Shown here one piece after another: positions 1,163 to 20,089 of a DNA stretch of 64,000 nucleotides. Origin of the DNA: Naegleria gruberi (taxonomy: Eukaryota); the NCBI GenBank assembly GCA_000004985.1, contig GG738879.1. The stretch is one strand, 5' to 3'. Numbering within the stretch: the stretch's first letter is position 1; every line of letters starts with the position of its first letter. Under the pieces are notes generated by a model that worked only from the letters and a program-made list of their open reading frames with translations, was not told the origin of the DNA and searched no databases. A program made the position numbers and the translations under genes.

Positions 1163-2005
1163 TCATTTTGTTGAAAACTCTTTTTTTACTTGGAACAGTA
1201 GAAAAATCATCAACAATCCACAAATAATCAAATGATTTCTGTTCGATTGTTTGCTCTTTTCATAGATTGGTGGAATTGGCAATTGATAAAAATTCGAAAC
1301 TCTATGATATTGAACTCTATTTTGCAACAATTCAATAAACTTGTGTGGATATCCCTGCGAGTAGAATGCATCTCTAGGAATTAATCCATCACTTTTGAAT
1401 CCTTGATTGACAACCTCTTGTATTTCTGCCTTATATTTTTCAATAGAATTAATAATGGCTTGTTTAGAATTTTCATTGAAATAAAAGACCTGAATAGATT
1501 CTACTGATTCGTATACATCAAAGGCCAGGATATCTATTGTAAAACCAACATCATTGTCCATACTGAGATATACCTCTTGAAGTGAAGTGTCAGTTTCACG
1601 AAGATTTTCCAATTTGAACGGTATCTCCTCTCTTGAAAAGACTTTTGCTTTTTGATTGGTGGAATCAGATATTTCAGATAGCAATACGAATCCTCTATTG
1701 TCAATATCAAAGAACTCCCTACTTCTACCTGTAATTGCTAAATTATTATCATTTCCACCTCTCAATCCAATCATGTAAATCAAACCATCACTCTTCATTC
1801 CTGAATGAAGCTTGGTGAATGCAGAAGGTTCCTTCTGGAATAAACTCTTCCAATCACTATCATCAATTTCCTTGTGATCTATTATTCTTGGTATAGTCCC
1901 GGACATGTTTCTTCTCCATCCTCTCGTTTTCAGCAATTGATAACTCTGAAAATGTTGCTTCTTCAAGCAAGATGCAAATTTGAGGGTGTTTTGTAATTTG
2001 TGCAT
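1163..2005 (-). CDS. Hypothetical protein of 280 aa with a C-terminal hydrophobic segment, possibly tail-anchored.
   Basis: Intact 843-nt ORF with ATG at 2003..2005 (minus). C-terminal segment LIICGLLMIFLLFQV. No recognisable family motif. Confidence 0.45.
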   Translation of the reverse strand: MHKLQNTLKFASCLKKQHFQSYQLLKTRGWRRNMSGTIPRIIDHKEIDDSDWKSLFQKEPSAFTKLHSGMKSDGLIYMIGLRGGNDNNLAITGRSREFFDIDNRGFVLLSEISDSTNQKAKVFSREEIPFKLENLRETDTSLQEVYLSMDNDVGFTIDILAFDVYESVESIQVFYFNENSKQAIINSIEKYKAEIQEVVNQGFKSDGLIPRDAFYSQGYPHKFIELLQNRVQYHRVSNFYQLPIPPIYEKSKQSNRNHLIICGLLMIFLLFQVKKEFSTK

Positions 2006-2124
2006 TTTTTTGATTTTGTTTTAATTTTCTTAAATTGCAGGATTTAGAAGTAGAAATTTCTTCCATTTTGCTTCTATTATCAGGGTTTAGATTTTATTAT
2101 TGGAATAAATTGAATTCTATCAGT

Positions 2125-3240
2125 TTAAACTGATTGAGTAATACCAAAAGAATCAAAATTATCTGGACATAATTTCGAATAATGTTCAACACCCTTCTCA
2201 AAATCCTCATCACTAATTAACAATTCATCCAACACTTGTTCCAACCCTGTGAAATTATGTCTCAGTCCAATGAACACAATTTCCTGTCGTCGGTCGCCAA
2301 CTCTTTCAACAAAATGTTGTTTAACATTCTCAAAAACTGTCTTTCCATATAACTGGATGGATTCTTCTTCACCTAAAGTATCAAAGAATTTCAGATATCG
2401 TTCAGTGAAAAGAAAATTGAACAATTTTTCAGTATGGAAAGGCTTTCGTCTTCTGTAAACAAAACTGTTGAATCCATATTCGAAAGTTTCTGGGGTTTGC
2501 ATTCCTCTGAGTTCTTTTAACCACCAGGATTGAATGCTGCCTTTTCAAAATCAAATAGTCCAGTATTCAATACTTTGGAAAGATCTAGCTGAGAATTCAC
2601 TGTTTCATACATTGGCGTCTGTTTTTATTATGGATTTAGTTTAGCCATTAAACTCTTAATCTTTTGAACTTCTTCAATTGAAACTAAATCAATCTTATTA
2701 ATGATAATTACATTTGCAAACTCAAATTGATCGATCAAGAGAGGAGCTATATTTCTTCCATCATATTGCGACAATCTATCAACAAACTTTTCCTTCATTG
2801 TCAAGACAGAATTCAAATCATGCATTAAATTTGCAGCATCAACCATAGTAACACAAGAATCTAATCTTGCAAAATCTGAAAGTGTAAACGAATCATCTTC
2901 ATCCAACTCTCCATCTTCATCTTCCACCTGGAATTCAACATATTCGAAGGTGAATGTCTCTGCAACCTGAAGTGGCTCTCCAATACCTGTTGATTAAATA
3001 TCACAATAGTCAAATACTTCAGTTTGAGATAATTCAAAGAGTTCAACCAGCAAATCTTCTCTCAATGTACAACAGATGCACCTGCAATCAAGAATTATTA
3101 CACATGGAATCAAATTACTTCTACCACTTCCTAAGAAACCACTCAACAGAGTAACTGGTATCTTCTTTCTTTTATATTTATCAAAAATGGATTTGCACAG
3201 GCTAGGAGCTTGTGCTGTTTGTTCTCTCCTTAAGATCCAT
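2125..3240 (-). pseudogene. CobW/ZNG1-family (COG0523) metallochaperone GTPase, disrupted and likely a pseudogene.
   Basis: Family motifs are present and in order on the minus strand: KIPVTLLSGFLGSG (P-loop, but the Walker lysine is Arg), CICCTLREDLL (CxCC), FDYCDI-*-STGIGEPLQVAETF (switch II), LIDQFEFANVIIINKIDLV (NKxD), NTGLFDFEKA, and a CobW C-terminal domain (QTPETFEYGFNSFVYRRRKPF…). Lesions: TAA at 2993..2995 sits exactly where the conserved Glu of the ETTG motif would be. A tandem TAA TAA lies at 2625..2630. A 1-nt frameshift (TT where TTT is needed) lies near 2517..2522, between NPGG and LKELRG. A further frameshift lies between the ATG at 3238..3240 and the P-loop frame. About 35 residues (the NEFGE/switch I block) are missing between GSG and CICC. 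Confidence 0.5.
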
Positions 3241-3463
3241 TAAGAATTGTTGTTGTTGTTGTGCTCTTTTTATTCTTTTTATGAATTTAAAACCCGTACC
3301 GCAGAATTAAAAGATTTACGGTGCAATTCTTTGAATTGAATATTCTATGAAGTATAGCAAGGTATTTGTGAGTTAGTACGATTGAAAAGGAGGAATTAAG
3401 GGTGAATGAGAAAACACCAACAATTATATGAACGCCTTAATATTCTTCAAATCTTCTCCAAGA

Positions 3464-3534
3464 AGGGAGATAGTTCAGTGGTAGAACATGGGATTGTGGT
3501 TCCTAAGATCAGGGTTCGATTCCCTGTCTTCCTA
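3464..3534 (+). tRNA. tRNA-His (anticodon GTG), 71 nt.
   Basis: Cloverleaf read directly from sequence: acceptor AGGGAGA/TCTTCCT, D-arm GTTC-AGTGGTA-GAAC, anticodon stem TGGGA/TCCTA with loop TTGTGGT (anticodon GTG), T-arm CAGGG-TTCGATT-CCCTG, discriminator A73. G-1 is not encoded, as in eukaryotic tRNA-His. A TTTT pol III terminator follows at 3539..3542. Confidence 0.85.
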
Positions 3535-3589
3535 CACCTTTTTAAATATTAATAATACAAGTTTATTGTAAGGCAGAGTCCAATTTAAA

Positions 3590-20016: not shown

Positions 20017-20089
20017 TACCGACAATGGGCTCGAACCCACGACCCCAGGATTAGAAGTCCTGTGCTCTATCCAACTGAGCTATGACGGC
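20017..20089 (-). tRNA. tRNA-Arg (anticodon TCT) candidate with an atypical T-arm and acceptor stem; possibly a tRNA pseudogene.
   Basis: Minus-strand sequence GCCGTCATAGCTCAGTTGGATAGAGCACAGGACTTCTAATCCTGGGGTCGTGGGTTCGAGCCCATTGTCGGTA. D-arm and anticodon arm (CAGGA-CTTCTAA-TCCTG) are canonical. The T-loop is only 6 nt (GTGGG-TTCGAG-CCCAT) and acceptor pair 5-68 is a U-U mismatch. A TTTTT run follows. Confidence 0.55.

What the first reader, a model, noticed from the sequence alone, without database searches (positions are those of the whole stretch)
2125..3240. CobW/ZNG1 metallochaperone GTPase gene with multiple disabling lesions but well-preserved motifs
All family motifs are present in order (P-loop, CxCC, ETTG/switch II, NKxD, CobW_C). 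Yet the locus carries: (i) TAA exactly at the conserved switch-II Glu (FDYCDI-TAA-STGIGEP, 2993..2995); (ii) tandem TAA TAA at 2625..2630 in frame between conserved blocks; (iii) a 1-nt deletion between NPGG and LKELRGMQTPETFEYG, near 2517..2522; (iv) a second frame break between the ATG and the P-loop; (v) Walker lysine replaced by Arg (GSGRS); and (vi) loss of the ~35-aa switch I / NEFGE block. Surrounding genes are intact, so this concentration of lesions argues for a recently inactivated paralogue of the Zn-regulated GTPase. That is of interest for metal-homeostasis rewiring. The alternative reading, stop-codon read-through or recoding, is disfavoured because the frameshifts also break it.
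Basis: partly seen in the sequence, partly recalled or inferred. Interest (0 to 1): 0.5.

Follow-up and report, generated by a model that had tools for sequence, protein, structure and literature searches.

The report
Decayed zinc-chaperone GTPase pseudogene in Naegleria
This is an ordinary dead copy (pseudogene) of a COG0523/ZigA-like metal-chaperone GTPase in the amoeba Naegleria gruberi, which keeps an intact copy on another scaffold. It is a useful annotation correction, not a biological surprise.

Summary
It also has TAA TAA at 2625..2630, a 1-nt deletion at NPG|WLKEL (base 2523), no in-frame ATG, GSGRS in place of GAGKT, and about 40 aa missing between the P-loop and CxCC.

The window is Naegleria gruberi NEG-M, shown by exact matches to six annotated proteins. 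TAA terminates 15 of 24 long ORFs in the window, so recoding is excluded. An intact paralogue (XP_002675743.1, 476 aa) lies on another scaffold. It is only about 57% identical, and the dead copy shows no special affinity to it. In an NJ tree the dead copy falls beside the Naegleria/Willaertia orthologues.

The frame keeps 3 stops against about 30 expected by chance, and 88% of family-invariant residues survive. This fits a diverged paralogue that stayed under selection for a long time and died fairly recently, at roughly 3-5% neutral divergence.

The 3' remnant ORF (2125..2502) is annotated as a 125-aa "predicted protein" (XP_002675281.1), which is almost certainly a mis-annotation. Interest is low.

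The parts
2125..3240 (-). Whole COG0523 (ZigA-like) pseudogene, from the out-of-frame ATG to the terminal TAA
   Evidence: Pfam cobW 9e-20 plus CobW_C; 55-59% identity to the Naegleria/Willaertia proteins over aligned columns
3202..3240 (-). ATG plus 12 codons ending in TAG, in a different frame from the P-loop (start lesion)
3117..3140 (-). P-loop remnant GFLGSGRS (Walker A Lys->Arg, Thr->Ser)
3081..3116 (-). 12 codons (NLIPCVIILDCR) where homologues have about 52. Two deletions (11 and 29 aa) remove switch I and the two intron sites seen in the relative L002
3069..3080 (-). CxCC metal-binding motif (CICC), preserved
2994..2996 (-). TAA replacing the invariant Glu of the Walker B/switch II motif I-E-S-T-G
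2688..2699 (-). NKxD guanine-specificity motif (NKID), preserved
2625..2630 (-). Tandem in-frame TAA TAA at the position of NP-DA, next to a 3-codon insertion
2517..2525 (-). Frameshift site GGT GGT TAA. One nt is lost between NPG and WLKEL (base 2523 shared by both frames)
2389..2394 (-). Junction of a 36-37 aa in-frame deletion in the C-terminal domain. It removes (V)LRSKG...WEQAG...IHDGG, including the invariant RxKG motif
   Evidence: alignment; motif role from PMC13001444
2125..2502 (-). 3' remnant ORF annotated in N. gruberi as the 125-aa 'predicted protein' XP_002675281.1 / NAEGRDRAFT_69614
   Evidence: 100% identity, same 384,281-bp scaffold

Best explanation
The locus is a non-functional, unprocessed-looking pseudogene of a second COG0523 (ZigA-like) metallochaperone GTPase in Naegleria gruberi NEG-M.

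Shown:
- It cannot make a GTPase. The start is out of frame and the Walker A lysine is Arg.
- Switch I is deleted.
- The Walker B/switch II Glu codon is TAA.
- Two more stops and a 1-nt deletion follow.
- The C-terminal-domain RxKG arginine finger is deleted.

Inferred:
- The copy is a diverged paralogue that evolved under purifying selection for most of its history. It is about 57% identical to every intact heterolobosean orthologue, yet it keeps the reading frame and 88% of family-invariant residues.
- It was released from selection fairly recently, at a rough 3-5% neutral divergence. It is now decaying while the intact paralogue XP_002675743.1 carries the function.
- The annotated 125-aa 'protein' is its 3' fragment.
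For: - Lesions.
- Family: Pfam cobW 9.3e-20 and CobW_C 1.3e-4; NCBIfam ZigA is the best model.
- Species: six window ORFs are identical to N. gruberi NEG-M proteins on a 384,281-bp scaffold.
- Intact paralogue on a 396,977-bp scaffold.
- Standard code: TAA ends 15 of 24 long ORFs, including 4 of 6 confirmed annotated genes.
- Coding signal retained: 3 in-frame stops against about 30 expected and 26/47 in the other frames. With 180 single-nt paths to stop, d is about 0.03-0.05.
- Conservation: 91 of 103 columns invariant in seven intact proteins are kept, against 96-99% for intact proteins in leave-one-out.
- Phylogeny: the NJ tree puts it inside the heterolobosean clade (95% bootstrap) but outside the four intact orthologues (90%). 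It has 17 shared derived residues and no excess of matches to the N. gruberi gene.
- No synteny with the orthologue loci of Willaertia, N. lovaniensis or a metagenomic Naegleria.
Against: - There are no transcript or re-sequencing data, so an expressed remnant or a rare assembly fault cannot be formally excluded.
- The three large deletions leave two frame junctions, and the frame is kept at both (roughly 1 in 9 by chance). This could hint at a translated, GTPase-dead intermediate stage.
- The age estimate rests on 2-3 nonsense events, so its Poisson range is wide (about 0.01-0.15).
- The basal tree position could be long-branch attraction. I found 0 sites where the pseudogene keeps an outgroup state that the four intact proteins lost.
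- No orthologue of this paralogue was found in any other heterolobosean.
Confidence: 0.92

Rival explanations
1. The gene is intact in the organism, and the lesions are sequencing or assembly errors.
For: A single-base deletion and single-base substitutions (GAA->TAA) are the kind of change that errors can make. No independent copy of the locus could be retrieved to check.
Against: Three deletions of 11, 29 and 36-37 codons, a 3-codon insertion and 12 substitutions at otherwise invariant residues are not base-calling errors. Neighbouring ORFs of up to 1,379 codons are uninterrupted, and six are identical to database proteins, so the local assembly quality is good.
Confidence: 0.02
2. The stops are decoded (TAA as Glu or read-through) and the shift is a programmed frameshift, so a full-length protein is made.
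For: One TAA sits exactly at a conserved Glu. This is what a TAA=Glu code would look like.
Against: TAA is the terminator of 15 of 24 long ORFs in the same window, and the annotated proteins end there. No suppressor tRNA is in the window. Even if fully decoded, the product lacks the Walker A Lys, switch I and RxKG.
Confidence: 0.01
3. Splicing removes the lesions, or the 125-aa 3' ORF (annotated XP_002675281.1) is a real small protein. It would consist of a linker plus a C-terminal-domain remnant and could modulate the intact paralogue.
For: In-frame GT..AG pairs of 35-51 nt exist around each lesion. The ORF is in the official annotation. COG0523 C-terminal domains can act in trans on their cognate G-domains in vitro (PMC13001444).
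Against: Every candidate intron deletes invariant residues: 9 at FDYxxIESTGIxE, 6 at GWLKELRG plus P250, and 3 at LNP. Their donors are non-consensus (GTATTT, GTTCAA, GTGGTT), unlike the GTAAGT/GTATGT of real introns in L002 and in the neighbouring Ras-like gene. The remnant domain lacks 36-37 core residues including RxKG. In the preprint, non-cognate domains did not act in trans. No homologous stand-alone ORF exists in 5.8 billion proteins.
Confidence: 0.04
4. It is a young, N. gruberi-specific duplicate (or retrocopy) of XP_002675743.1 that was dead on arrival and diverged neutrally.
For: It lacks both introns that the relative L002 has near the P-loop. It sits in a non-syntenic location next to an orphan gene. 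It retains no outgroup-like ancestral states.
Against: Neutral decay down to 57% amino-acid identity would have filled the frame with stops (about 30 expected, 3 seen) and erased the invariant residues (88% kept). It has no excess of residues shared only with the N. gruberi gene: 6, against 10 and 13 with Willaertia and N. lovaniensis. No poly(A) relic follows the stop.
Confidence: 0.05

Closest known systems
Naegleria gruberi XP_002675743.1 (NAEGRDRAFT_69138), with its orthologues in N. lovaniensis and Willaertia magna and a metagenomic Naegleria-like contig (P0004, P0003, P0001)
   Same: Same COG0523 subfamily and same domain order. CxCC, NKxD, PETxEYG, GDRRQE and 91 family-invariant residues are shared. 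They form one clade in the tree.
   Different: Those are intact proteins (P0001 as called lacks its two 5' exons). The four full-length proteins are 476-547 aa. All carry GAGKT, switch I, IESTG and RSKG. The window copy has eight lesions and is only 55-59% identical to them, while they are 65-76% identical to each other. It lies at a different, non-syntenic locus.
Bacterial zinc metallochaperone GTPase ZigA (NCBIfam NF038288; Acinetobacter baumannii ZigA)
   Same: It is the best-scoring curated family for both the pseudogene and the intact paralogue, with about 45% identity to methanotroph ZigA.
   Different: Scores of 277 and 485 bits are below the 600-bit equivalog cut-off. These are eukaryotic proteins with acidic inserts, and their function has not been tested.
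Eukaryotic ZNG1 (CBWD) family and its duplicated or decayed copies
   Same: A COG0523 GTPase with CxCC. From my own knowledge (not tested here), the human CBWD/ZNG1 genes sit in segmental duplications with several degraded copies, so COG0523 pseudogenes are a known phenomenon.
   Different: Membership of the ZNG1 clade was not tested. The paper that defines ZNG1 and ZNG2 as separate clades (PMC10642216) says cytosolic ZNG1 has a characteristic N-terminal extension. I did not test for it, and the N-terminus of the window copy is broken.

Membership tests
COG0523 / G3E P-loop GTPase (Pfam cobW PF02492 + CobW_C PF07683) | Significant homology to the G-domain and the C-terminal domain | tested here: met
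   cobW 71.4 bits (cut-off 20.7). CobW_C 22.2 bits (cut-off 22), so only just.
COG0523 / G3E P-loop GTPase (Pfam cobW PF02492 + CobW_C PF07683) | Walker A GxxGxGK[ST] | tested here: not met
   GFLGSGRS: Lys->Arg and Thr->Ser
COG0523 / G3E P-loop GTPase (Pfam cobW PF02492 + CobW_C PF07683) | Switch I / G2 region between the P-loop and CxCC | tested here: not met
   40 of about 52 residues are deleted
COG0523 / G3E P-loop GTPase (Pfam cobW PF02492 + CobW_C PF07683) | CxCC metal-binding motif | tested here: met
   CICC at 3069..3080
COG0523 / G3E P-loop GTPase (Pfam cobW PF02492 + CobW_C PF07683) | Walker B / switch II (I-E-S/T-T-G) with an invariant Glu | tested here: not met
   The Glu codon is TAA at 2994..2996. 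The flanking residues are kept.
COG0523 / G3E P-loop GTPase (Pfam cobW PF02492 + CobW_C PF07683) | NKxD guanine-specificity motif | tested here: met
   NKID at 2688..2699
COG0523 / G3E P-loop GTPase (Pfam cobW PF02492 + CobW_C PF07683) | [quoted passage not shown] | tested here: not met
   RSKG of the intact homologues lies inside the 36-37 aa deletion
COG0523 / G3E P-loop GTPase (Pfam cobW PF02492 + CobW_C PF07683) | Uninterrupted ORF with a start codon (a functional member rather than a relic) | tested here: not met
   No in-frame ATG, 3 in-frame stops and 1 frameshift
ZigA (NCBIfam NF038288 equivalog) | Score at or above the curated cut-off of 600 bits | tested here: not met
   277 bits for the pseudogene and 485.5 bits for the intact paralogue. 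It is the best family for both but below the cut-off.
CobW proper (TIGR02475, cobalamin biosynthesis) | Score at or above the cut-off of 332 bits | tested here: not met
   33.8 bits
ZNG1 (eukaryotic METAP1-activating clade) | Placement in the ZNG1 clade and a ZNG1-type N-terminal extension | not tested
   No ZNG1 reference sequence was included in the trees. PMC10642216 defines ZNG1 and ZNG2 as separate clades. The N-terminus of the window copy is broken.

The most novel reading that the evidence does not exclude
The 125-aa remnant ORF (2125..2502, annotated XP_002675281.1) might be expressed. It is a COG0523 linker plus a C-terminal domain that has lost its RxKG arginine finger. It could act as a GAP-dead decoy that competes with the C-terminal domain of the intact paralogue and so damps its zinc-dependent GTPase cycle. 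An earlier stage of the locus may have been a translated pseudo-GTPase, which would fit the fact that the large deletions all preserve the frame.
Probability: 0.03. Interest if true: 0.45.

Novelty: new member of a known kind. Interest (0 to 1): 0.12.

Why it matters
The main value is for annotation. RefSeq/UniProt entry XP_002675281.1 / D2VL03 is almost certainly a pseudogene fragment, not a protein. The rest of the pseudogene (2503..3240) matched no exact database entry in the ORF-fragment look-ups and no near-identical hit in the homologue search.

It also shows that N. gruberi once had two divergent ZigA-like COG0523 genes and now has one of that type. That is a small data point for the turnover of metal-chaperone paralogues in heteroloboseans. 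It does not indicate recoding, new biochemistry or loss of the pathway.

Tried and rejected
- **Alternative code (TAA=Glu, as in peritrichs or Blastocrithidia).** I considered this because a TAA sits exactly at a conserved Glu. Rejected: TAA ends 15 of 24 long ORFs here, and the window is N. gruberi.
- **Intron rescue.** I enumerated GT..AG pairs that would remove each lesion in frame. Such pairs exist by chance, but all delete invariant residues and have poor donor sites.
- **An intron hidden in GSG|GTAGAAGT...TTGCAG|G at the P-loop.** The relative L002 has a phase-1 intron there. Rejected: removing it breaks the frame into CICC, and RSNLI aligns as coding sequence to KTTLL.
- **Synteny with the orthologue loci** in Willaertia (L001), a metagenomic Naegleria (L002) and N. 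lovaniensis (L003). None was found beyond the gene itself.
- **An independent copy of the locus.** Exact-product look-ups of the 280-aa neighbour and the 125-aa ORF found nothing. Two DNA-pattern scans of JGI metagenomes, which allowed for an intact Glu codon or an undeleted base, found nothing. A homologue search with the neighbour gene showed it to be an orphan.
- **N. gruberi P0002 locus.** It was not retrievable, so the paralogues could not be compared at DNA level or for intron positions.
- **Literature.** Searches for the locus tags and for Naegleria with COG0523 gave nothing relevant.
- **PDB.** It holds only YjiA as a relative.

Full report
**Observation.** I translated the minus strand of 2050..3300 in three frames. 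I then aligned the conceptual product with seven intact homologues.

- The gene runs in one frame from about 3239 to 2523 and in another from 2523 to the TAA at 2125..2127. Base 2523 is shared, so 1 nt has been lost between NPG and WLKEL.
- TAA replaces the invariant Glu of I-E-S-T-G at 2994..2996.
- TAA TAA lies at 2625..2630.
- The only ATG (3238..3240) is out of frame with the P-loop and meets TAG after 12 codons.
- The P-loop reads GFLGSGRS.
- 40 residues (gaps of 11 and 29) are missing between the P-loop and CICC.

A 36-37 residue in-frame deletion in the C-terminal domain (ERYL|KFFD) removes the block (V)LRSKG...WEQAG...IHDGG.

Pfam gives cobW 9.3e-20, and CobW_C only just above its cut-off. 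In-frame stops number 3, against about 30 expected from base composition and 26 and 47 in the other two frames. This is a real coding relic, not a chance match.

**Where it comes from.** The best database hits are proteins from Naegleria gruberi, Willaertia magna and N. lovaniensis, plus one metagenomic contig, followed by bacterial ZigA proteins.

Six long ORFs of the window are identical to annotated N. gruberi NEG-M proteins on a 384,281-bp scaffold. The window is therefore N. gruberi nuclear DNA. It is gene-dense, with ORFs of 270 aa or more covering about 41 of 64 kb.

Neighbours of the locus:
- Downstream is XP_002675280.1, an orphan with no homologue in the protein collection.
- Upstream lie tRNA-His and an intact multi-intron Ras-like gene.

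The 3' remnant ORF 2125..2502 is itself annotated as a 125-aa 'predicted protein', XP_002675281.1 / NAEGRDRAFT_69614.

**Recoding, errors and splicing.**
- TAA terminates 15 of 24 long ORFs in the window, including 4 of the 6 ORFs that match database proteins exactly. The only tRNAs in the window are His(GTG) and Arg(TCT). TAA is therefore a stop codon here.
- The three multi-codon deletions, a 3-codon insertion and 12 replacements at otherwise invariant columns cannot be base-calling errors.
- I enumerated GT..AG pairs that could splice out each lesion in frame. Short ones exist, as expected by chance. Each removes invariant residues (FDYxxIESTGIxE, LNP, GWLKELRG). Each uses a poor donor compared with the GTAAGT/GTATGT of real introns in L002 and the neighbouring gene.
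- Even a fully 'repaired' product would lack the Walker A lysine, switch I and the C-terminal RxKG motif. A 2026 preprint reports that motif as the only absolutely conserved motif of COG0523 C-terminal domains and as an arginine finger needed for GTP hydrolysis (PMC13001444).

**Relationship to the intact genes.** N. gruberi has an intact 476-aa paralogue, XP_002675743.1, on a different scaffold.
- Over the columns the pseudogene retains, it is 56-59% identical to each of the four intact heterolobosean proteins. Those four are 65-76% identical to one another.
- An NJ tree of 27 sequences and 321 columns places the pseudogene with the heterolobosean proteins (95% bootstrap) but outside the four intact ones (90%).
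- Character counts temper this result. The five share 17 derived residues. The pseudogene has no excess of matches to the N. gruberi gene (6, against 10 and 13 to Willaertia and N. lovaniensis). It retains no outgroup state that the other four lost. The duplication is therefore old, or the copy diverged fast, and the exact node is unresolved.
- No synteny links the window to the orthologue loci of Willaertia, N. lovaniensis or the metagenomic contig.
- The relative L002 has two introns just after GFLGAG and after NDMAE. The pseudogene has neither, because that region is largely deleted.

**How long dead.**
- The sequence offers 180 single-base paths to a stop codon, so 2-3 nonsense events suggest roughly 3-5% neutral divergence since constraint was lost. 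The error is wide.
- The pseudogene keeps 91 of 103 columns that are invariant in the seven intact proteins (88%). Intact proteins keep 96-99% in leave-one-out tests. The shortfall of about 10% is what 3-5% nucleotide divergence would produce. This last step is inference.
- Most of the 40%+ amino-acid divergence from the other genes therefore accumulated under purifying selection. That makes the locus a once-functional, divergent paralogue that died fairly recently.

**Family.** NCBIfam's best model is ZigA (NF038288). The scores are 277 bits for the pseudogene and 485 bits for the intact paralogue, both below the 600-bit equivalog cut-off. CobW proper scores 34 bits. The only solved relative is E. 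coli YjiA. Membership of the eukaryotic ZNG1 clade was not tested; ZNG1 and ZNG2 are separate clades according to PMC10642216. 'COG0523, ZigA-like' is the defensible label.

**Verdict.** This is an ordinary decaying paralogue. There are three corrections:
- One coordinate is off by one base.
- The C-terminal-domain deletion was missed.
- The copy is not a recent duplicate, and the genome keeps an intact ZigA-like gene, so nothing points to a change in metal homeostasis.

The practical result is that XP_002675281.1 should be treated as a pseudogene fragment. The literature held here mentions neither locus tag.

Noticed in passing
window 2125..2502 (-): RefSeq/UniProt carry this ORF as a 125-aa 'predicted protein' (XP_002675281.1, D2VL03, NAEGRDRAFT_69614). 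It is the 3' fragment of the pseudogene and lacks the core of the CobW_C domain, so it is a likely mis-annotation.
   Followed up: yes
window 1163..2005 (-): The downstream neighbour XP_002675280.1 (280 aa) has no detectable homologue among 5.8 billion proteins and no Pfam domain on record. It is an orphan gene 120 bp from the pseudogene.
   Followed up: partly
window 3464..3535 (+): A tRNA-His(GTG) gene sits between the pseudogene's 5' end and the Ras-like gene. A tRNA-Arg(TCT) lies at 20017..20089 (-).
   Followed up: no
window 3590..~4606 (-): What look like two GTPase ORFs are one Ras-like gene with several short introns. The exons read [24 protein letters not shown] / [15 protein letters not shown]... 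/ ...ILDTAG / ...VLVGNKADL...CTMM with a CAAX end. The first donor is GTATGT.
   Followed up: partly
L002 1590..2035: The closest relative, P0001 (ENA metagenome contig, 38.6% GC, Naegleria-like), was called as an N-terminally truncated 381-aa protein. Prokaryote-style gene calling missed two introns. Its first exon is the separate 52-aa ORF 1590..1748, and a small second exon lies around 1823..1903.
   Followed up: partly
L003 11504..11669: The N. lovaniensis orthologue has an intron inside the C-terminal-domain block (near DYCG|DWEQAG) that is deleted in the N. gruberi pseudogene. L002 has no intron there. Whether this is more than coincidence is unknown.
   Followed up: no
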